A DNA stretch of 64,000 nucleotides, from assembly GCA_958009085.1 (NCBI GenBank), contig OY253671.1, positions 1,550,001 through 1,614,000 of the forward strand, written 5' to 3'. The position numbers and the translations under genes are program-made. The first letter of the stretch is position 1. Every line of letters begins with the position of its first letter. Below the pieces are notes generated by a model. It did not search any database. It was given only the letters and a program-made list of their open reading frames with translations, and was not told the origin of the DNA. This document shows positions 13,301 to 25,200 of this stretch, one piece after another. Source of the stretch: Protoeuglena noctilucae. Its lineage: Eukaryota.

Positions 13301-15896
13301 AGAGCAATGCAGGAATGAGGGGGGTGGCCTTGATGGTGAGAACACAGGGGGGATGGGGAGAGGAGATGGGGTGGAGTGGGGTGTGTGTGAGTGGTGGGTG
13401 GTAGTAATACATACTGAGGCATCACATCGTATCACCCTCCCTTGCACTGCCACTCATACCCACCCACACGCCCAACCCCACCCACCTGTGCCTCTCTGGC
13501 TGCGTGACAGGGGCAGCATCGTACCCTACATCAATATTACTATCACTATTGCTCTCCCTTGCACCATCACACCCACCTGTGCCTCTCCGGCTGCGTGACA
13601 GGGGCAGCATCACACTGAAATATAACTACTCTCCCTTGATCTATTAAACCCACCCTTCCACCGCACCTGTGCCTTTCTGGCTGCGTGCCCGCCACCGCGC
13701 TGCCCCTCATCATGCGCTCCCCCCCTTCCTCCGACCCAGACACGCGCACCATGTAGCTGGCCTGGGAGGGTGGGGGATTTGAATTTGAATTTACATGGGG
13801 TCACGTCAGCGTGTGTGATGGGAGATGTTGAGAGGGTTAATGTGAACCACCCTTCCTCTATGCCCATCCACAAATGGCAAAGTCAACACACGCAGTCACA
13901 CTCTCATTCCCAGTCCCCATAACACCCACTCATTCCCACTCACTTCCATTTCTATTAATGATGTCCAATACCCCCATTCCACATCACAACTCTCACCCTT
14001 TCTGCTTCCCTCTCCGCCCTCCACGTGGTCGAGTCAACACACGCAGTGACAGCCACGCTAACAACCACTACTCACTGATAATAACCAATAGTAACCAGTA
14101 ATAACCAGTAATAACCAATAACCCCTATTCAAATAACACCCCACTCACCCTTTCTGCTTCCCTCTCCGCCCTCCACGTGGCCGAGTCGTGCACCGCGTCC
14201 TTGAGCGTCAGAATCATCCGGCTCTTGGCCAGAAGCAATTGCTGGCGGGGCAGAGCACGATGTTCGGTCTTTAATGCCTCAGTTACCAGTTGCAGGCTGC
14301 GGTGGATGTCTCTCCGCATGGTCGGGAACTCAGGGGAGTCGAGGAGAGAGGCGTAGGTGCACATGCAGGTGCGGAGGCGGAACAGGACGCTGCAAATGGG
14401 GGAGAGTGTGTGATAGATGGGTTGATAAGATGAGAAAGAGAGTGTGATATGATGGAAGAGTGAAACATGATAGCCATCTCAGTCACTCTCATCTCCCCCA
14501 CCCGTACGAGAAGGTGAGTATGGCACGTGCATTTAACACACAACAGCTATTGTACACAATAAAGTAACTTCAATATTTCGTATTGTACCAACTACCTCCC
14601 TCACCCGTACGAGAAGGTGAGTATGGCCTCCAAGTTATCGTCGGCCCTCTTGTCGGTGGTGTGCATGGTCAGTCGGCCCCCCTCCAATCGGAGACTGCGG
14701 AAGGACTTTCCGCGGATCCAAGACTCGGTGCTGTGGCTGGGAAGGGACTCGGGGACGTCCTGGGGGCACCACAGCGCAAAGCGAGGGGGTGATATTCGTG
14801 ATAACATATGAACATTGGAATGTTTTTGATAAACAGTGTTGCAGAGGTGCATTTGTGATTGATGCACCCACTCTATCTCACACACGCACCCCCACCCCTC
14901 ACCTCGTCCCCCTCGACTAATCTCTTGTACTTGTGCACCATCTCCCGGAACTTGCGTGGCGGCTTGACGTTGAGCGTCGGGAACCGCAGCTCCCCCATCG
15001 CGGGCCGGCCCCCCTGGTCCACTTTAGCCTCCAGCTGACTCAGGGCCTTGTCCAGAGCAACACTGAACGGGGAGGTAAGAGATGAGATGGTGAGGGTTGC
15101 GAATGGCGTGAGGGGTGATGACGGAGCAAGTCAGCACGCCGAGCAATTGTGCTCTCTAGAGCAGCTAGCAAGTAGTGCTCTAGGTCACGGCAGCTGATGT
15201 CCGGCCATCCCTTCCCTTAAACAACCACGCACGCACCGTGTCTTGGCGTGCCGCTTGACGTGCTCGGCCACGTTAATCTCGCCGCCCCGCAGCGCCGACG
15301 TGCCTTCAGACCCTTGGGACCCACATGCACCACCTCCACCGTCCTGGGCGCAGCAGAGAAGCGAACGCGGCGTGGGAAGGTGGGGCTAAGTGAGACAGGA
15401 CGGCACGGGGAGCCAACCGGTGCGCCGGACGCCGCCGTGACGCTCGCCAGCTCTGCTTTTAGGCGCATGCGTTGCGCATATGCAAGCAAAATGCCGCTGC
15501 GCGGCGTCAGGGCTGCGCCCCTCGCGTCACAGGCACCCCGATGCGCCTTGCTCGCCTGTCCATCGCCAGCTCCGCCTCATCGCGGATGCCGAGCAGTTCG
15601 CATGCCATTTGAATGGCGCTCTTGCCCTCCGGGAGGCTCGCGCCGGGCTCCCATGCCGAAGGCTGAGCGAGCGAAGCAAACAGAGAAGTTTTCTTGCCCA
15701 TACGGCACGACGCGTCCGAGGCCCGCGAGCCGGCATTTTCCGCATCTATGAAAGCAGAGGACACTCTGCATACATGCACGCGCGGACCGCTTACCTTGGC
15801 CTCCCGCTGCGACCTGCTGAAGAGCTCGCTCGCCACCACGCCCGGAATGCTGTGGTGGCGACCCGACAGGAACAGCTCGCTGTTGGCAGCTTCCAT
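10390..15896 (-). CDS. Large multi-exon hypothetical protein, extensive Gly/Ala low-complexity region
   Basis: Spliceable exons: MEAANSELFLSGRHHSIPGVVASELFSRSQREAK, PRRVRFSAAPRTVEV, VALDKALSQLEAKVDQ..., FALWCPQDVPESLPSHSTESWIRGKSFRSLRLEGG..., CTYASLLDSPEFPTMRRDIHRSLQLVTEALK..., a long exon around 11270-13190, and ELMSHVRPQLDRGIESMVFETMRLNK. No family recognised; the last exon is unresolved (possibly about 10150-10250). Confidence 0.55.
14080..14124. repeat. Intronic ataaccagta-like short tandem repeat
   Basis: ataaccaata gtaaccagta ataaccagta ataaccaata acc. Confidence 0.8.
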
Positions 15897-16378
15897 GGCT
15901 AGGTATCCACAGCGCGTCCTCCGGCGCCAGCCGACCCTCTAAGCGACGCAATCCGGCGAAAGGTCACGCGCACATGGACAGCGACGCCGGTGCGCCTACG
16001 ACCCCGTCTGGGCTTCCGGAGAGCAACCTGGAGTCCGACATTGGTGCGGCACCGACGAGAGGTCCGCATTTGGCTGGTTTTTGTTCTGCCAGTCTGACGG
16101 TGTAAAAAGTTGGTTTCCTGCGGCGTCAGTTGAGGGGACGTGGAGCAGGTCGCTGCGTAGTTTATTGCGAGAGTGCGTGTGGCGCTGTCCTCGACGCTGC
16201 CGGGTCTCTAGTTTGTGCGAGCCACCGGGCAATTGCCCAGGCTCGTCGTTCTTGGGTTGGGCACCCTGTGCGGGTGGCTGAGCTCGTCCTTTTGGCTGCG
16301 GTTACCCGGCGCGCGTCTCGCTTTGCTAAAAAGGGGTCGATCGGGCCTGCGTGCCGCCTCCGTTTGCAGCGGTGCGCC

Positions 16379-19300
16379 ATGGCGGAAGAGAAGACGCTCA
16401 CGGATCTCAAAGAGGTGCGTTTGGTGTTCTGGTACGACCGATGCTTGCGAAGGAGGAAGCGGAGGCCGGGAGAGCCCGGCCGCGCCCTCCGATAGCGCTG
16501 TATCACGTGCTCATGCACCCACGCCGTGTGGGCGATGCCCGGGCCCCTGCGCGCCCAGCACCAGCATGTCTCACCCGTTTCCCGACCCGAAAGTGCAAAT
16601 AGGCGCGAATCGCTCCGCGGGGCTCCGCGGGGCGGGCAAGCCCATGCAAGCGCCCGAGGGCGTGGCATTCTCGAACATCACGCGCCTCCCGGGCTCGCCA
16701 GCCTGCGTTTCCGTGGCTAATTTTCCGAATGGCTATAAGGGAGCACGCCTCACTTTTCCCCGGGCCCTGTGGGCGCCGGAGCATGCGGCCTTTGCCACCC
16801 CCCGACACCCCCCCCGTGGGGCGCGCGATCGCGGCCCGCGCGTCCCCGGCCCGCAGATCTTTGAGTCGAAGACGGAGGAAGAGAAGTTCGTGCTGCTGTG
16901 CAGGGCGGGGCTCGTCCGGCAGGGCAGGGGCACGCTGGGCATGCTCGTCCAGACGGGGGGCGAGCAAAACCTTGAGACCGTCGAGGTGCGCCGCCCGCCG
17001 GGGCCGCGTGACAGGCTGAGACTTGTGTAATTCGCGCGCACCCGCCGCGCGGAGGGCTCCGGCGACCGCTGCGCCCCGCTTTCGCGGCCGCCCGCAGGCG
17101 GACGTGCTTCCAAAGGGTAACTCGTTCGCGATCTATTGGAACGGCAAAGAGCTGTCGACGCCCACGGAGGTGCGTAATCGACGCGAGCGCGGGGCGCAGG
17201 GGCGAGCGCGGCGCGGCGCGCGGCGGCTCGGGGACGCCTCTAGATCGGGCGTGTGTTTTGCGCCCGCAGTTCATGCGTACGGTGATGGATTCGAAGCGCG
17301 GGAACTCCGGAGTGGACGCATGGGGTGTCGTGCACGACAGGCGCGTCGCGGGGCGCAGCGGCGGCCGGCGCGGGGGCCGCGGCGGGGGTCGCGTGGGCCC
17401 ACACCTTCGGCCACCGCCCGCGCCCGGCCGGATCCGCCGCCGCCCGGCCCGTGCCCGCAGGAACTGCACTCTTCAGGAGACTTGGTCGCATTTCGTGGAA
17501 GTGTATCCAAAAATGAAGCGCTTTGAGGGAGGGCCCTTCCGCCGTTGGTTCCAGCTCTCCCGCGGCAATCAATCGAACGGGAAATGGTTCACAGGCCGCG
17601 TCACCAAAATCAAGGTGCGTGGAGGAAGGCAGGAGCGCGGGCGCGGGGCGGGGCGGGCCGGTGCGGGGCGCGCGGGGGCCGGATGCGCGCGCACACTCTG
17701 GCAGCCATGATCCGCGTCCCGAGCCACCCTGCGACAATGATCAGCGGCGCATCGGAGAAATGAGAACAATTTATTGCCGAAGCAGTTGCCGCTTCCCGCT
17801 CTCAATCGACGGCTCGTGATTTTTTTATAACTTTCTTTTGTGATCCTTCTTCTCCTCGTTCTCCCCCGCAGGCCATGCCGAAATCGGAGACCTCTTCCCG
17901 CGGCAACGTGGTTTGCATGCGCCTGTTCCTGGCCGTGCATTACCCCGAGGACAGCGACACGGGGGAGTTCAGCTACGATCAGTTCCGCCAAGTTCTCAAG
18001 TGAGCGATGGGTGGGAGGGCAGTGGGCGTGGGTGTGTGTGCATGTGTGTGTGGGCAGGTTTGCGAGAGAGCGAGGTTTAATCTAAGATGGCATGGTGTCA
18101 GCAATGTTGGGACATCGTAGCGCCCTCGCTGCCGCCCCTCCTCCAGCCCACACGCCCCAGTCACCCCTCACCCTCACCCCATCCCCCCCCCCCCCTCCCC
18201 TCGCAGGGACGAGCGCAATGAGTTCGGCAACTCATTGATGGACGCATATCTGGGCCAGACATCCTATGTCTCCACAGAGCCTCCCAGCCCCCCCAGCCCC
18301 CGCACCACCGCCCCCACTCGCGGCCGAGGCCGGGGGAGGGGCAGGGGCCGCGAGCGCTCCACCCCGCTCACCCTCGCGGCGTCGTCGATCGAATCGGACC
18401 TGTTCCGCGCGCTCAACGCGGTCTCTGATCTGGAAGAACCGATCGCGACCGCCCTCGCGCGACGCCGGCCCCTGCCGCCCCCCGTCCCTTTCCACGGCGG
18501 CCAGCCCCGCCGTGACGGCGCGATCGCCAGTTTCCTGTCAGACGTCGCGGACCCGCTGCTTTCGATGACGGAGGGTGGTGCGCTGGACGGTGGCGCGTGG
18601 GAGTGCGTGGCGGATATGGGGGGTACGGTGGCGGTGGTGGAGCGGCCGGGGGGTTACGACGTCAGCGGGGCCATCGATCACGTGGCAGACATGCTCAAAT
18701 CACGGTGAGGTGGTGTTGTGGGGGTGGGGGTGGGGGTGCGGATGGAGGTGTATCTGGCATAGATCACGTGGCAGACACGATAAAGTCGTTATGAGCCTTC
18801 CCCTTTCACCTTTTTATAAGTACCCCTTTCACTCCTCACCACCACCACCCTTCACCCCCCACTCACCACCACCACCCTCCACCCCTCCACTCACCACCCC
18901 ACTCACCCCCCCTCTCTTCCCCCCCTCCCAGCCGCGGCGTCCTCCCCACGGCCAGCGCCGCCGAGGTCCGCTTCCTCACCTGGCGACTCCTGCAAACACG
19001 CATGGGGGTGGGGCGGGCCCGGCTGCCCGTCAAGCAGCTGGGGCGCTTCCTGGCAGCCACACGCGCCCACGCCCACGCCTTCCATCTCGCCTCCGATATA
19101 TGGGCCGAGTGGCGAACGTGGGAGAGAAACAACTTCAGTGCGGATGCGCTGGCTCACCTGCAGGAGAGGGCGGCGTCGGGGCAGCCGCTGAGTGCGTCGC
19201 GAGATCGGTCGGTGTTGAAGGACGCGCACACGGCGGCGGTGGGGATGCCGACGGTCGCGGGGGCGGGGGCGGGGACGAGGGGGGTGGGGGAGGTGAGGGG

Positions 19301-21259
19301 GGGTGGGTGCAGTTGGGGCCTGCGTGGGTGGATGCAATGCACACGGATGCAATGCACATGCGCTTTGATGACACGCAATATCAATATAAATTCAAAATGC
19401 GATTCAAATCCACAACCCTCCCCCCCCCTCCCCCGCAGCCCCCAGTCAAGCGATTCAAATCGGAGCCCTCCTCTCTGCCCGTGGGCCACTCTGTTTGGGC
19501 AGCGAACGCCAACGCGGGTGCGATTGGACCGTTGCAGTCGCGCCGTGCGGCGGGGGTGTTTCAAGCGTCTCTGGTGGGGGAGGAGGGGGCGGAGGGGTGG
19601 GCGGGGGCGCCGCTGCCGGTGCTGGTGCGCATCTGCAGCCACCTGACCATTCGGTGAGATGAGTGGGTGATTGGGGATGCTTGAGTGATTGGGGTTGTCC
19701 CCCTTCCACCCCCTCACTACTCACCCCTCATCTCTCACCCACCCCCTTTCTCATCCCCTCTCTTACCCCCAGTGACGCCGCATCTTTTGCATGCGTGTGC
19801 GCCCCCTCACCCCTCACTCACTCCCTCTCACCATTCACTCACCCACTCACTCACTCTCACCCCCCATCACTATCTCTCCCCCCCCAGTGACGCCGCTGCT
19901 TTCGCGTGCGTCTGCGCCCCCTTCCGATGCGCTGCGGCCATGCTGGGCGTGACCGGGTGCTTTGCCCCACTGGCGCTCGATGCCAGATTGGCTTCCATTG
20001 CCACGGCCAGGAGTGCGGCGGCGGTGGTAGGGAGGCAGGTAGAGAGTTTGAGGAGGGAGGTGAGGGGGGGGACTGGGGGTGGTGATAGTGGGAGAGGGAG
20101 TGGGAATGGTGAGGGGTGAGGGTGAGCGTGAGTGGCGGTGCTGTTATGGTGGGGCAAGTGAGAACACTCTCTCCCCCTTTAGGTGGACTTAGGACGCGTT
20201 TGTTGTATGATTAACGATTACATCTCCACCACCCCCTCCCTCACTGCTCAGGTGGATTTGGACGCGATCGATGAGCTGGACCGTCGCAATTTGAAAACAG
20301 CCGAGGATGTGCTTGAAGCGACGCTGGACGACGCCATGGTGGGGAGGCTGGTGCGGGCACTGCGCAACAGGGGGAGGTGAGGATGGGGGGTGATGAGAGT
20401 GGGGGTGATGGGTGATGATGGCTGCATGTGTATATGCGTGCATGGGCAGTGATGGTGGGGAGGCTGGTCAGGGCGCAACCGGGGTAGGTGATGGGTGTGG
20501 AGAGGGAATAGGGAATGCAATGTATTATATATATTCCCCTCACTACTAGTCTCAACTACTCCAATGACTGACTGACCCCACCTCGCATCGCCCCCCTCCC
20601 TCACTCCCAATCACATCCTACATGCAACATGCACATCCCTCATCACGCCCCCAGGGCCCCCCAGCTCCGCGCATCCGAGTCCCACCTCCGCTCCCTCCCC
20701 ATCGCACCCATCCACATGCATATCCCAATCACCTTTATTAACATTAATGCCCCAATCGCCCCCCCAGGGCTCCCCAGCTCCGCGCGTCCGAGTCCCACCT
20801 GCGCTCTCTCACCGGCCGCCTGGCCACGCGTACGGCCGAGTGGGAGCCGCAGCTGGCGAGCGCGTGGGCGCGCACGGACAGGCTGTCCGCGGAGATACGG
20901 TGAGTGATGGAGGGGTGTGGTTGTGTTTGAATTGAAATGTGAATGTGTGCGTGTGTGCTTTGCATGAGAGCCGCAGCTGGTGCACCGTGTGGTGCGCCAC
21001 TGACTCCCTCACTCCCTCACTCCCTCACTCACTCACTCCCTCACTCACTCACTCCCTTCCACCCCCCACTCCCTCACTCACTCATTCCACCCTCACCCCC
21101 ACCCACCCCCGCAGTGCCGAGTCCTCCCAGCTAATGCACCGCGTGATGCGCCAGGCATTCGAGGCCAAGCTCATCGGCGGTGGCCCCTCCGTCAGTCGAC
21201 CGGGTGACGCCCCCGCAGAGGCCATGGAGGGGGGAGCGCAGAGCGAGGCCAGGCATTGA
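16379..21259 (+). CDS. Putative chromatin protein: RAMA-like domain + Tudor-like domain + F-box-like motif + coiled coil
   Basis: Spliced peptide: MAEEKTLTDLKE|IFESK..FVLLCRAGLVRQGRGTLGMLV..VE|ADVLPKGNSFAIYWNGKELSTPTE|FMRTVMDSKRGNSGVDAWGVVHDR|NCTLQETW..RRWF..GKWFTGRVTKIK|..FLAVHYPEDSDTGEFSYDQFRQVLK; later WAGAPLPVLVRICSHLTIR|DAAAFACVCAPFR. Stop TGA at 21257-21259. Confidence 0.6.
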
Positions 21260-22208
21260 TGGGACGAGGTTTGTTAAGAGGGGCAATGAGGGTGTTGAGT
21301 GAGAGGGGCAGTGAGTGAGGGGCGCAGAGCGAGGCAAGGCACTGAGGGGGGGGGGGGAGGGGTAGAGGGGGTGGCAGGAGGGTGTTGAGTGGCAGAGAGG
21401 GTGTTGAGTGAGAGGGGCAGTGAGTGAGGGGCAGTGAGTGGGGGGGCATGACGTGGCACGGACTGAGGCTACGCACAGGGGGAGAGTGGAAGAGGAAATG
21501 AGGATGACAAATGAGGGGCATTGAGTGGACTTGCAGGGATGCCCGAACTGCGGGTGTTGCGGGTGGCAGGGCGCAGCTGGGGGTGCCCGCCTATCCCAGC
21601 CCCGTCACTTCTCACATATAGCAGCGCACGGCATTGTATGGCATTACGACTGCGTTTTTCCTTTCAAAAGTACTTAGCTTGCGTTTCCCGGGTAGCTCCA
21701 TTTCAGCGCAGGGGGCGCAGTGGGGCGCGTTGAATCACCGAACAGCGACAGTCGCACTCATGTGTCACTCAAGAGACACCGCACAGCACAGCACATGACA
21801 GGGGCAGGGAGTCACGACTCACATCCGCATGCGTCAGCGGGCGAATTCGGACTCTGCATCGTTTTGCATCAGCATGCGCAAGTTGTCACTGGCCGGCAGC
21901 CGTGGAACTCTGTCGCGTTTCAAAATCGGAGATCGCGTGAAGTCCCGACGCGGGGTGCATCCCGAGCTAGCTCAGCCTAGCCTAGCCGTCTAGTCTAGTC
22001 CAGCCAGGCACGAGTACAAGTCTGTCGCGACATCCCTCACGCATCCACGGCATCGCGACGAGCTATCAAAGTGACTGCGACTGCAACTGCACCTGTGCTG
22101 CAACTGCAACTGCGCTGCACCTGTGCTGCAACGGCGACAGTCCTTAACACACACAACGCCTGTCAATGTGTGAGGTGCCGGAGTGGGTACCGAGAGTTGA
22201 AGACTACC

Positions 22209-25200
22209 TTACACCACGAGGAGGGCCGTGAGGAGGATCAGGGAGAGCGCGGCCCCGAACGCGACGGCGGAGGAGTTGACGTTGTCGGCGGAGGAGGTGG
22301 ACGCGCCCACCGACACCGTGGGGTCCCAGTGGACGTACTGGGGGGGATGAGGGGGGGTGAGAAGTGAGAATGGAAGTGATGGAGTGATACATGTTGCTTA
22401 TCATGGTCAACAACGCGAAGGAGCAGTGGTGGTGGGGTGGTATGAGGGTCGCACTGTGTGAGAGAGAGCGGGGCGGAAAGGGCACAGCGGGGCGCAGGGG
22501 GCATGGGGCGGGGGTGCGTGCAAGACGTGTAATAGAGAGCAGCAGGGGTGCAGCATCGGTAGCGGCATCTGCAATGGCAACGGCATCCATTGACGCTCAC
22601 CGTGTCGAAGAAGGGGACCGTGATGCGGACGCGGAGCTCGTCAAACTCATGGTCCTGCTGGCTGCCCTGCTGGCCACCCTGACCACCCTGCTGACCGCCG
22701 CCCTGCTGGCCACCCTGGCCGCCGGGAGCGGGGGTGGCGCCGCCGGGAGCGGGGCCGGGAGCGGGAGACTGGGAGAGGCGACGGGTGTGGGGGGTGGCGG
22801 CGGGACCCTGCCCACCCTGCTGCCCGCCGCCCTGCTGCCCGCCGCCCTGCTGCCCGCCCTGCCCCTGCTGGCTGCCCTTCTGGTTCTTGCTGTTGAGGTC
22901 GGCGGGCGTGCCGATCTCGATGTCGCTCGTGCTGAGGCAGTCGTAGGTGACGGTGACCTTGTTGGTGGACGAGTCAGTCGTGCTCAGGTACACGCACTGC
23001 TCCAGGTCGAGGGAAGCCTGGGCGTCGCTGCCAGAGCCCAGGGCCACGTTGAGGCGCGTCATCGGAGCCTGCTTCTGGGTGCTCTTGCCACCCTGCTGGC
23101 CGCCCTGCTGACCACCCTGCCCGCCCTGCTGCCCACCCTGGCCGCCCTGACCACCCTGCTGGCCACCCTGGCCGCCCTGCCCACCCTGCCCGCCCTGCTG
23201 GCCGCCGGGAGCGGGGGTGGCGCCGCCGGGAGCGGGGCCGGGAGCGGGGCCGGGAGCCTGGGAGAGGCGACGGGCGTGGGGGGTGGGGGTGCCACCCTGC
23301 TGGCCGCCCTGCTGCCCGCCACCCTGCTGCCCGCCACCCTGACCACCCTGCTGGCCGCCCTCCTTCTGGGGACCCTGGGGCCCGGAGCGGGGGTCGCAGG
23401 GGTTCTGCAGGAAGGGAGGGGATGCGGGAAGGGAGTCAGGGTCGGTGGCGCCCGATGCGTTGCAATGCCGGCCACAAGGGAAGCACAGAGCAGCGAATGA
23501 GCCCGGCGCACCCACGCAAGCGATGCTGCATGCAAACACAAGCCCCACAGAAGCGACATGCATACGTGCACGCACGCAAGCGCCTCGTGCCTGGCTGGTG
23601 CAGTTGCGCTGGGAGGTGATCTTGCTGGGGTCGGAGCTGCTGTCGGAGCTCTTCATGGAGAAGTCGATCTGGAGCATGTTGCTGGAGCTGCAGAAGTCCC
23701 AGCCGGTGACTTTGACGCCGAACTGCAGGGCACGATGGGGCGGCACGGGTGGTGAGGTGGTATGTAATCAGATGGTCGTTGTTAGGCCACTCGCACATCT
23801 CGCTTGCACATCACCATCCCCCGCCTTGCCATTGCTATTAGTGTCATAACTACCACCCACGCCCCTCACGGCCTCCGCCCCTCTCTGCCCCTCGGCCCCC
23901 TTGCTCTTCTTCCCAATCGCACCAACCCATCGCAGCACTACTCGCCTTGACCGAGTCGGCTCCCACTTGCACGAGCGTGCCGTTGGTGGTGGCGGCGGAG
24001 GCGTTGGCGATGGCCACGTCGGTGCACGACACGGTGCACATCTCGGTGGCGGCGGGGACGCACACGCCCGTCGTCTGGTCGCACGTGGGCTTGAGCGACG
24101 AGGCGGACGCGGGGCAGTTGGTGGGGGCGCCGCACAGGAGCTCCGAAGAGGCCTGCAGTGAGTTGAGTGGGTGGGTAAGGGTGGGCGAGGGTTAGTAGGG
24201 TGCGCCATCGCATGCGATACCCCCAGGTGCTTCGGTTTGCTTCCCAGCACCGCCAGCTGCAGCTGTCGCCTCGTCCGGCGCGTGCGTGCGAGGGACTCAC
24301 GTCGAGGTTGGCGTTGTCGGAGAAGATGAGCATGTGCATTTCCACCAGGCGCTGCGTCGGGTCCGTGACTTTGGTCAGGCCGCCCGTGGGCGCGTAGGTG
24401 GGCGCGGGGGTAGGGGCAGACGTCGGCGCCGTGGTGGGCGCCGTGGTGGGCGCGGTGGTGGGCGCGGTCGTCGGCGACTGGGCCAGGCGGCGGGCGTGGG
24501 GGGTCGCGGGGGCAGGGGTGGACGGGGCCGGCGTGGCGGTCACGGTGGGGCAGGCCCCGAGCGACAGGGCAGCCAGGGGGTAGCTGAAGTAGAGGTCGAG
24601 CGCCTGCGGGGAGAGGGTTGAGTGTTGATTGGTCTCACTCTTGCGATGTGTGCCAAAGGCCCCTTGCCTAGTTGATTGCGGCACCGTTTGCTGGGTCTGT
24701 GCTCGCAAGATGCCCGCGTGCGCGCTGCTCACATAGGCAGTGCCGGAGGTGGTCGTGATGGTGGCGTTCGACACGGCGAATGACAGCAGGTCGCTCTGGT
24801 CGATGTTCCCCAGCACGCGGTTGGCCACCGCCTGCTTGCTCGAGTCGACTTCCTGGATCTGGAGGAAGCGCAGGTCCAGGTAGTTGGAGTCCGTCACGTT
24901 GCTCTTCTGGAGCACGCTGCGGGGGGAGGGGAAGGAGGAGACGCACTCGCGGCTGCGGTTCGCCAGCAGTCGTCAGTCCAACGTCGGCGCGGGCCTAACG
25001 CACCGGAAGTTGGGGCGGAGGCCGTGGAGAATGACCTTGAGGGCACCATCGTTCGAGGTGAACGCAGTGTCGTCCTGAGAGCGCGGTGAAGTGCCCGCGA
25101 TTCCGCGCGGACGAGGTTACATGCAGGGGACTGCCGAGCCCCCGATCGACGGCTTCGGCGACGCGGCCGGGGTCGAGCGCCCGCGCAGCATTCGATCTGC

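What the first reader, a model, noticed from the sequence alone, without database searches (positions are those of the whole stretch)
16379..21259. RAMA + Tudor + F-box architecture: candidate modified-DNA reader coupled to SCF ubiquitination
16857-17490 encodes L..AGLV.QG.G.L...ADVLP.G...I.WNG.E.STPT.F......DAW.VV, resembling the RAMA domain of MPND, which has been proposed to recognise N6-methyladenine DNA. 17530-17999 resembles a Tudor barrel (WFTGRV...VHYPEDSD..E). About 19597-19940 resembles an F-box (W..AP..VL.RI.SHL...D...F.CVC..FR). RAMA is known fused to a JAB deubiquitinase; an F-box fusion would be the opposite activity. 6mA is an established TSS-associated mark in Chlamydomonas. 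Domain calls are by eye.
Basis: inference. Interest (0 to 1): 0.7.

Follow-up and report, generated by a model that had tools for sequence, protein, structure and literature searches.

The report
Algal RAMA domain fused to F-box
A transcribed, spliced gene of a small marine alga appears to join a DNA-binding module (RAMA) to a worn copy of the tag that plugs proteins into ubiquitin ligases (F-box), an apparently undescribed pairing, but nothing here shows that it reads methylated adenine.

Summary
The region is a 13-exon gene (745 aa, no internal stop). RNA contigs from one sample show 10 of 12 introns as joints and an 11th as a loose end; intron 8, between the RAMA half and the F-box half, is unbridged. 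On the spliced protein, custom profiles support RAMA (aa 23-110; hhalign 95.5%, shuffles up to 6.5%) and a degenerate F-box (aa 536-572; 95.2%, shuffles up to 4.4%). The Tudor call stays weak (12%). MPND's three DNA-backbone residues are matched (T76, T78, W97). The 6mA-reader reading is weak: the MPND structure shows backbone-only binding unaffected by 6mA, and the one positive study found no binding in GATC. RAMA-Tudor and RAMA-RING-ligase fusions are already in print, so 'opposite activity' is not new; RAMA plus F-box was not found in my paper searches or in 0 of 150 RAMA proteins. The scan noted other RAMA fusions on other genomes, none with an F-box. No orthologue was found. The genome encodes an AMT1-type 6mA writer, Skp1 and cullins. 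Best reading: a lineage-specific chromatin-docked Skp1 adaptor; a new variant of a known kind.

The parts
16379..21259 (+). 13-exon gene, 745 aa. Exons 16379-16414, 16857-16985, 17098-17169, 17270-17340, 17461-17614, 17872-17999, 18207-18704, 18932-19292, 19439-19653, 19888-20059, 20252-20376, 20768-20899, 21115-21259
   Evidence: Open spliced frame; RNA joints for introns 1-7 and 9-11, 10-letter loose end for intron 12, nothing for intron 8
16887..17482 (+). Divergent RAMA domain, aa 23-110, on exons 2-5; T76, T78 (exon 3) and W97 (exon 4) align with MPND S113, S115, W135
   Evidence: Custom HMM and hhalign with controls; column counts; MPND alignment and residues (PMC9963953)
17341..17460 (+). 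Intron 4, GC-AG, 120 nt, in frame without a stop
   Evidence: RNA joint skipping 120 nt in runs X2 and X3
17534..17999 (+). Possible Tudor-like barrel, aa about 128-197 (motifs WFTGRV in exon 5, HYPEDSD in exon 6), with long loops
   Evidence: Weak only: hhalign 12.2%, E 0.0024; Pfam Chromo_MORC2_6th E 0.023 on the end of exon 5
18313..18357 (+). Arg-Gly repeat, aa 233-247, in a Pro/Gly/Ser-rich linker; possible extra nucleic-acid contact
   Evidence: Sequence; function inferred
18652..19178 (+). Unassigned helical region, aa about 346-445
   Evidence: Single-sequence model of exon 8 gives three helices, pLDDT 68.6, pTM 0.40; no Foldseek match; Atlas hits all under 0.8
19293..19438 (+). Intron 8, the only junction without RNA support; it links the RAMA half to the F-box half
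   Evidence: Canonical phase-0 donor and acceptor (14 of 15 pyrimidines) in frame; RNA hole about 19252-19616 bounded by G-run tracts 19259-19328 and 19576-19607
19439..19459 (+). Basic motif PPVKRFK, aa 484-490, like a nuclear localisation signal
   Evidence: Sequence; resemblance recalled, not tested
19595..19939 (+). Degenerate F-box, aa 536-572, split by intron 9
   Evidence: Custom HMM and hhalign with controls; intron 9 joint in run X3
19949..21175 (+). C-terminal region, aa about 576-718, low in Pro/Gly/Ser, probably helical; no WD40, LRR or Kelch match
   Evidence: Composition; Pfam on exons 10-13 gave only Hydantoinase_B E 0.0037, below its cut-off

Best explanation
One nuclear protein that docks on chromatin and carries an F-box. 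The N-terminal RAMA grips the backbone of double-stranded (probably linker) DNA through T76, T78 and W97 without reading base or methyl group, perhaps helped by the Arg-Gly repeat; the neighbouring Tudor-like barrel, if real, adds a histone-tail contact; the F-box binds Skp1 and so brings a Cul1 ligase to chromatin, where a protein held by the middle or C-terminal helical region is ubiquitinated. Shown: the spliced gene (except intron 8), the RAMA and F-box homology, the residue match, and Skp1 and cullin genes in the genome. Inferred: DNA binding, nuclear location, Tudor identity, Skp1 binding, ligase activity and substrate.
For: RNA joints and open frame. RAMA 13.0 bits versus 5.9 and 4.2 in controls, hhalign 95.5%. 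T/T/W at the three sites whose mutation nearly abolished MPND DNA binding (PMC9963953); Thr occurs there in 33 of 158 and 25 of 157 family domains, Trp in 149 of 153. F-box 19.6 bits versus 8.3 (shuffles) and 2.6 (150 RAMA proteins), hhalign 95.2%, with P541, I548, L552, R555, D556, V563, C564, R568 matching the commonest residue. Both solved RAMA-DNA complexes show backbone contacts only (PMC9963953). RAMA travels with chromatin modules: among 150 proteins, JAB 20, zf-CW 16, ARID 3, SNF2 2, ankyrin 2, Myb 2, HDAC 1, bromodomain 1. Skp1 4 matches, cullin matches on 3 contigs.
Against: Intron 8 is unbridged. Corrected for 24,736 families the RAMA HMM E-value is only about 0.08 (F-box about 7e-4). 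The RAMA matches 13 of 34 conserved columns exactly, lacks the family's Lys-Arg pair (M85, D86; K 139 of 155, R 139 of 153) and the Gly before Trp (154 of 154), and has net charge -3 against a median of +4 in 142 domains. The F-box has Ala for the Leu before Pro (22 of 25), Pro for the acidic residue (19 of 27), Ala for the basic residue after VC (25 of 30) and no third-helix Trp. Tudor is not significant. No orthologue or paralogue was found, so there is no conservation evidence. No recognised substrate-binding repeat follows the F-box.
Confidence: 0.4

Rival explanations
1. One reading: the RAMA prefers 6mApT in linker DNA downstream of active promoters, so the protein brings SCF ubiquitination to the first nucleosomes of expressed genes.
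For: The genome encodes an AMT1/MTA1-like enzyme (E 1.3e-35 to PDB 7f4r against about 1e-11 to METTL3). AMT1 species, prasinophytes included, carry ApT 6mA at gene 5' ends and their readers are unknown (PMC12695648). MPND RAMA bound 6mA DNA in one pull-down study (PMC6591016). RAMA is found in lineages with 6mA (PMC4738411).
Against: 6mA did not change MPND binding and no base contact is seen (PMC9963953; restated in PMC11037411). The positive study saw no binding to 6mA in GATC and no selective binding by MYSM1 RAMA. This RAMA is more divergent than the two canonical RAMA loci of the same genome. 6mA was not measured in this organism; only 2 MT-A70 matches were listed and none was an AMT6/7 partner, though that count is a lower bound.
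Confidence: 0.1
2. The F-box is a relic that no longer binds Skp1; the protein is a young, lineage-specific chimera that acts, if at all, as a chromatin-binding scaffold.
For: F-box score is second-lowest against the 30 leave-one-out scores with changes at several core positions. The genome has at least 76 F-box-like matches including a near-identical expanded family, a ready source of shuffled copies. No orthologue found. Exon edges in this part of the gene are repeatedly duplicated.
Against: The motif keeps its spacing over 31-37 residues with no gap, spans an RNA-supported intron, and exons 9 and 10 keep third-position GC of 0.79 and 0.75 like the other exons.
Confidence: 0.25
3. It works like FBXL19 or KDM2B: a DNA-binding module plus an F-box that binds Skp1 but not a cullin, and recruits another complex to chromatin instead of ubiquitinating anything.
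For: FBXL19 binds non-methylated DNA through ZF-CxxC, binds SKP1, lacked CUL1 and RBX1/2 in purifications, and recruits CDK-Mediator through its F-box (PMC5997449). The order reader first, internal F-box later is the same here.
Against: No CxxC, PHD or LRR here; the analogy is functional only, and other papers cited there report SCF(FBXL19) ligase activity (reference list).
Confidence: 0.15
4. Two genes: a RAMA/Tudor-like gene ending near 19.3-19.6 kb and a separate F-box gene starting in the stretch called intron 8.
For: No RNA contig covers about 19252-19616. The frame of exon 9 is open upstream through intron 8 and holds Met codons (ORF 18569-19657).
Against: Without intron 8 the upstream frame runs to 19646 and would overlap the second gene on the same strand. 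The hole is bounded by G-run tracts. Donor and acceptor are canonical and in phase. CpG o/e falls from 1.03-1.33 at 15.5-18 kb to 0.41 at 21 kb with no new rise near 19.3 kb, and introns 8-12 are of the CpG-poor body type. Contig depths on both sides are similar (12-12.7 and 19.5 in X2; 5.2 and 5.3 in X3).
Confidence: 0.08

Closest known systems
MPND (RAMA + JAB/MPN deubiquitinase-like; PDB 7ydt, 7ydw)
   Same: N-terminal RAMA with hydroxyl/hydroxyl/Trp at the three DNA-backbone positions; link between DNA binding and the ubiquitin system.
   Different: No JAB domain; F-box instead; RAMA far more divergent, less basic; no similarity outside the RAMA.
Eukaryotic RAMA fusions of Iyer et al. 2016 (PMC4738411): RAMA with Tudor, PHD, chromo, bromo, SET, ARID, MBD, ankyrin, BRCT, RING E3
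   Same: RAMA joined to histone-reader modules and to a ubiquitin-ligase module is already listed.
   Different: F-box does not occur in the main text (0 hits) or in the held supplement text, which ends inside the RAMA+JAB list; Figure 4 could not be seen. An F-box is an adaptor needing Skp1 and a cullin, whereas RING is catalytic.
FBXL19, KDM2A, KDM2B (ZF-CxxC reader + F-box + LRR)
   Same: DNA-binding chromatin module upstream of an internal F-box that binds SKP1; precedent for coupling DNA methylation state to an F-box protein (PMC5997449).
   Different: Unrelated DNA-binding fold, no LRR; CxxC senses non-methylated CpG, shown by experiment, whereas methyl sensing by RAMA is disputed.
PTM/DIR17-like Tudor domain (Pfam PF21743)
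   Same: Similar order of motifs (F-x-G-x-V, then Y-x-D-x-D, then a helix), as in own-genome locus L006.
   Different: Loops about 8 residues longer; no significant profile match.

Membership tests
RAMA domain (PF18755) | Profile match over the whole domain | tested here: met
   Custom profile of 159 domains from 150 proteins, all Pfam RAMA: 13.0 bits over profile positions 14-93; hhalign 95.5%. Modest after correction for library size (about 0.08).
RAMA domain (PF18755) | Score above Pfam's own cut-off (35.2 bits) on the spliced protein | not testable with these tools
   Pfam could be run only on single exons: no RAMA hit on 12 pieces; window not among 2 candidates in the genome search.
RAMA domain (PF18755) | DNA-backbone residues S113, S115, W135 of MPND | tested here: met
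   T76, T78, W97 in register (PMC9963953).
RAMA domain (PF18755) | Basic DNA-facing surface; Lys-Arg and Gly-Trp motifs of the MPND-like subfamily | tested here: not met
   M85, D86, A96 replace K, R, G; net charge -3, reached by 4% of 142 domains. The profile is narrow, and PMC9963953 says most RAMA residues are not conserved.
RAMA domain (PF18755) | Fold (three helices, six strands) and preference for 6mA DNA | not testable with these tools
   The domain lies on four exons in different frames, so it could not be folded; 6mA preference is itself disputed.
MPND / MYSM1 | JAB/MPN domain | tested here: not met
   No JAB hit on exon pieces; blastp of the spliced model against 150 RAMA proteins, 20 with JAB, matched only within aa 25-128.
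F-box proteins | F-box profile match | tested here: met
   19.6 bits, E 3e-8, against the best 30 of 76 own-genome F-box-like matches (24 over Pfam's cut-off); controls 8.3 and 2.6; hhalign 95.2%.
F-box proteins | Core residues L-P, acidic, I, L, D, V-C/S, basic, W | tested here: inconclusive
   P541, I548, L552, D556, V563, C564, R568 kept; A540, P543, C549, A565 depart; third-helix Trp absent.
F-box proteins | Binds Skp1 and assembles into SCF | not tested
   No complex prediction was run: the F-box and the canonical-looking Skp1 gene are both split by introns. Skp1 and cullin genes exist.
F-box proteins | C-terminal substrate-binding repeats (WD40, LRR, Kelch) | tested here: not met
   No such Pfam hit on exons 10-13; many F-box proteins lack them (recalled).
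Tudor / Agenet barrels | Profile match | tested here: inconclusive
   hmmsearch 3.0 bits, below shuffles (5.6); hhalign 12.2%, score 20.6 against at most 15.8 in 200 shuffles; profiles had only 5 and 11 sequences.
Tudor / Agenet barrels | Aromatic cage for methyl-lysine or methyl-arginine | tested here: inconclusive
   W132/F133, F146, Y178, D181 sit where a cage would be; the mapping is recalled and no structure was obtained.
FBXL19 / KDM2 | ZF-CxxC, PHD and LRR domains | tested here: not met
   No such Pfam hit on 12 exon pieces; analogue, not member.

The most novel reading that the evidence does not exclude
Probability: 0.08. Interest if true: 0.8.

Novelty: new variant of a known kind. 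Interest (0 to 1): 0.4.

Why it matters
Readers of eukaryotic 6mA are an open question (PMC12695648 calls identifying them key), and whether RAMA senses 6mA at all is unsettled. A RAMA protein in an AMT1-bearing alga, tied to an F-box, is a testable case of chromatin-directed SCF recruitment built from other parts than FBXL19/KDM2. Its weight is limited: RAMA fuses with many chromatin modules, including a RING ligase already in print, the gene has no detected orthologue, both domains are worn, and the two canonical RAMA genes of the same genome are better first candidates for the 6mA test.

Tried and rejected
Pfam on 12 exon-level pieces: no significant hit. Homologue searches with exons 4-5 and exon 8 among longer proteins: none at E up to 10 out of 2907 and 3499 candidates; with the L001 RAMA: none of 299, which shows how insensitive that search is. 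Metagenome scan with exon 5: 3 loci matching 10-16 residues, treated as chance. Own-genome paralogue searches: only self plus weak hits. ESM Atlas: no usable hit for exons 4-5, hits under 0.8 (HAT-repeat-like, lead only) for exon 8. PDB sequence searches with exons 5 and 6: nothing meaningful. Exon 8 model had no Foldseek match. The first F-box profile was discarded because 16 of its 30 sequences were read on the wrong strand; it was rebuilt. The two-sequence RAMA profile A1 scored the model 2.9 bits, below shuffles. Agenet and LBR_tudor genome searches gave one locus each, not this window. The RNA hole at 19252-19616 is not taken as evidence of a gene break; runs X1 and X4 cover introns and look like DNA, so they were not used as splicing evidence. 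The duplicated acceptors at 19774 and 20656 were rejected as exon starts because RNA uses 19888 and 20768. Literature searches: 'RAMA domain'+'F-box' 0 papers; 'RAMA domain'+'adenine methylation' 8; RAMA+6mA+reader+algae 1, irrelevant by its abstract; MPND+RAMA+6mA+binding 4. Scan notes: no RAMA+F-box finding and no look-alike sequence.
Full report
Gene structure. The window lies in a 26.3-Mb, 27-contig eukaryotic genome whose sequence occurs in marine metatranscriptomes. Reading splice sites by eye and checking in a script gave 13 exons from 16379 to 21259, 2238 nt, 745 aa with only the terminal stop; 11 introns are GT-AG and intron 4 is GC-AG. Four runs of one study were laid. Two runs of one sample (X2, X3) show joints for 10 of the 12 introns (1-7, 9-11) at the predicted places, and X3 has a 10-letter loose end at 20899 equal to the start of exon 13. 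The other two runs cover introns and look like DNA. One 801-nt contig carries exons 5-7 and, by equal depth at the joints, exons 2-4, so the RAMA and Tudor-like parts share a transcript. One 476-nt contig carries the end of exon 9 and exons 10-12. No shown contig covers about 19252-19616, so intron 8 is unbridged (163 contig pieces and 10 loose ends were not displayed). The hole is bounded by G-run tracts at 19259-19328 and 19576-19607, the donor and acceptor are canonical and in phase, the unspliced upstream frame would overlap a second gene, and CpG content shows no second gene start. I put one gene at about 90%.

RAMA. Pfam found nothing significant on 12 exon-level pieces, and the exon-wise genome search found two other RAMA loci but not this one. 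I aligned those two, searched 1.84 billion proteins (694 hits at E up to 0.001, best 150 returned), confirmed all 150 as Pfam RAMA and built a profile from the 159 domain envelopes that scored over 30 bits. No window sequence went into it. The spliced protein matches at aa 23-110 with 13.0 bits, single-sequence E 3.4e-6; the best of 2000 shuffles scored 5.9, the best unrelated six-frame ORF of 3247 scored 4.2 and the reversed protein 1.7. hhalign gave 95.5% (E 1.6e-8, 80 columns) for aa 1-125 and 90.7% for the full protein, against at most 6.5% in 60 shuffles. Multiplied by the 24,736 Pfam families the HMM E-value is about 0.08, so this is a divergent member. It matches 13 of 34 conserved columns exactly and 6 conservatively. 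T76, T78 and W97 align with MPND S113, S115 and W135, whose mutation nearly abolished DNA binding (PMC9963953). Against strong binding: the Lys-Arg pair and the Gly before Trp are replaced, and net charge is -3 against a median of +4 in the 142 of 159 domains of comparable length.

F-box. A profile from the best 30 of 76 own-genome F-box-like matches (24 over Pfam's cut-off) matches aa 541-571 with 19.6 bits, E 3e-8; shuffles reach 8.3 and the 150 RAMA proteins 2.6. Leave-one-out scores of the training set run 17.5-65.6, so the motif is at the weak end. hhalign gave 95.2% for the segment and 88.6% for the full protein, null 4.4%. P541, I548, L552, R555, D556, V563, C564 and R568 match the commonest residue; A540 (Leu in 22 of 25), P543 (acidic in 19 of 27), C549 (Leu in 18 of 29) and A565 (basic in 25 of 30) depart, and the later Trp is missing. 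Skp1 and cullins are in the genome. Skp1 binding was not tested.

Tudor. The motifs WFTGRV and HYPEDSD are there and resemble the PTM/DIR17-type Tudor of locus L006, but the loops are longer. With profiles of 5 and 11 sequences, hmmsearch gave nothing above shuffles and hhalign 6.6% and 12.2%; the latter beat all 200 shuffles. I rate it plausible (about 60%) but unproven. Six of the 150 RAMA proteins carry a Tudor-like stretch by eye or by that small profile (four were in its training set; Pfam gave only Agenet E 0.045 for one).

Rest of the protein and relatives. A Pro/Gly/Ser-rich linker with an Arg-Gly repeat, a helical region (exon 8 model: three helices, pLDDT 68.6, no fold match), an NLS-like motif (recalled resemblance) and a probably helical C-terminus make up the rest. 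No orthologue or paralogue was found; these were exon-sized queries with low power. An F-box was seen in 0 of the 150 RAMA proteins; many of them are fragments and they are the best 150 of 694. Their partners were JAB 20, zf-CW 16, ARID 3, SNF2 2, ankyrin 2, Myb 2, HDAC 1 and bromodomain 1.

The 6mA question. The genome encodes an enzyme with intact DPPW that is far closer to ciliate-type MT-A70 structures (7f4r, E 1.3e-35) than to METTL3 (about 1e-11); I read it as AMT1/MTA1 (name recalled). AMT1 species carry ApT 6mA at gene 5' ends, and readers are unknown (PMC12695648; passages and one section). So the mark probably exists here, though it was not measured. PMC6591016 (passages) reports 6mA-selective pull-down for MPND RAMA but not for MYSM1 RAMA and not in GATC. 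PMC9963953 (abstract, first part of Results, Discussion) found sequence-independent backbone binding and no effect of 6mA, and notes the same for the CcrM RAMA. PMC11037411 (passages) restates that the preference is unconfirmed.

Mechanism. Most likely a chromatin-docked Skp1 adaptor with methylation-independent DNA binding (0.4). Rivals: relic F-box (0.25), FBXL19-like scaffold that binds Skp1 without a cullin (0.15; PMC5997449, passages), true 6mA reader coupled to SCF (0.1), two genes (0.08).

Novelty. PMC4738411 (passages) already lists RAMA fused to Tudor, PHD, chromo, bromo, SET and the RING E3 ligase, so neither RAMA+Tudor nor RAMA plus a ubiquitin-adding module is new. F-box was absent from its main text and from the held supplement, but of 131 RAMA places there I saw 75, the held text ends inside the RAMA+JAB list, and Figure 4 is not held, so an entry there cannot be excluded. 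No paper in the library holds both 'RAMA domain' and 'F-box'; subscription papers and preprint supplements are not covered. The scan's own notes list RAMA fused to TFIIE-beta, to an HDAC with a Tudor-like module and to AlkB in other genomes (4 of the 8 notes shown, of 59), and none with an F-box; these are unchecked leads, except that an HDAC with two RAMA stretches also appears among my hits (P0059). Verdict: a real, apparently undescribed but lineage-specific domain combination within a promiscuous family; new variant of a known kind; interest 0.4.

Noticed in passing
window 16415-21114: Intron type changes along the gene: introns 1-5 have GTGCG/GCGCG donors and 0.12-0.23 CpG per base, introns 6-12 have GTGAG donors and 0.017-0.048. 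CpG o/e falls from 1.03-1.33 near the divergent gene starts to 0.41 at the 3' end and oscillates along the window. It suggests gene-body 5mC with protected 5' ends, as in algae where 6mA occupies the 5' end.
   Followed up: partly
window 18758-18777, 19767-19808, 20452-20491, 20643-20700, 21313-21345: Degenerate copies of neighbouring exon edges, four of them including a splice site or the stop codon, sit inside introns 7, 9 and 11 and behind the stop, all in the CpG-poor low-complexity part. RNA uses the non-degenerate sites. Possibly a local duplication process that lengthens introns or slides splice sites.
   Followed up: partly
L046:1411-2010 (G000:C7) and L047 (G000:C1): An AMT1/MTA1-like methyltransferase with DPPW and a second MT-A70 gene that looks METTL4-like (recalled motif, not tested); no METTL3/14 or AMT6/7 match was listed among 3 candidates.
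   Followed up: partly
L001:1510-1764 (G000:C12) and L002:1537-1710 (G000:C10): Two canonical RAMA loci in the same genome; the closest library protein to L001 has RAMA + zf-CW (P0001). Better first candidates for a 6mA-binding test.
   Followed up: partly
L025, L027, L033, L037, L038, L039: An expanded family of near-identical F-box motifs in long single-exon frames on several contigs; many of the 76 F-box-like matches share the same profile span 1-42.
   Followed up: no
L049 (G000:C21) and L051 (G000:C20): Two divergent Skp1-like genes beside the canonical-looking one on C4.
   Followed up: no
window 21450-24970, minus strand: A convergent, transcribed gene with internal Gln/Gly-rich and Pro/Ala/Thr-rich repeated blocks, like a secreted or surface protein.
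   Followed up: no
window 15063-15897, minus strand: A divergent spliced gene starting about 480 bases upstream, also with a GC-AG intron (15344-15555).
   Followed up: no
P0100, P0117, P0059 (library proteins): RAMA fused to CHD/SNF2 remodellers (one with chromo and HMG box) and to a histone deacetylase.
   Followed up: no
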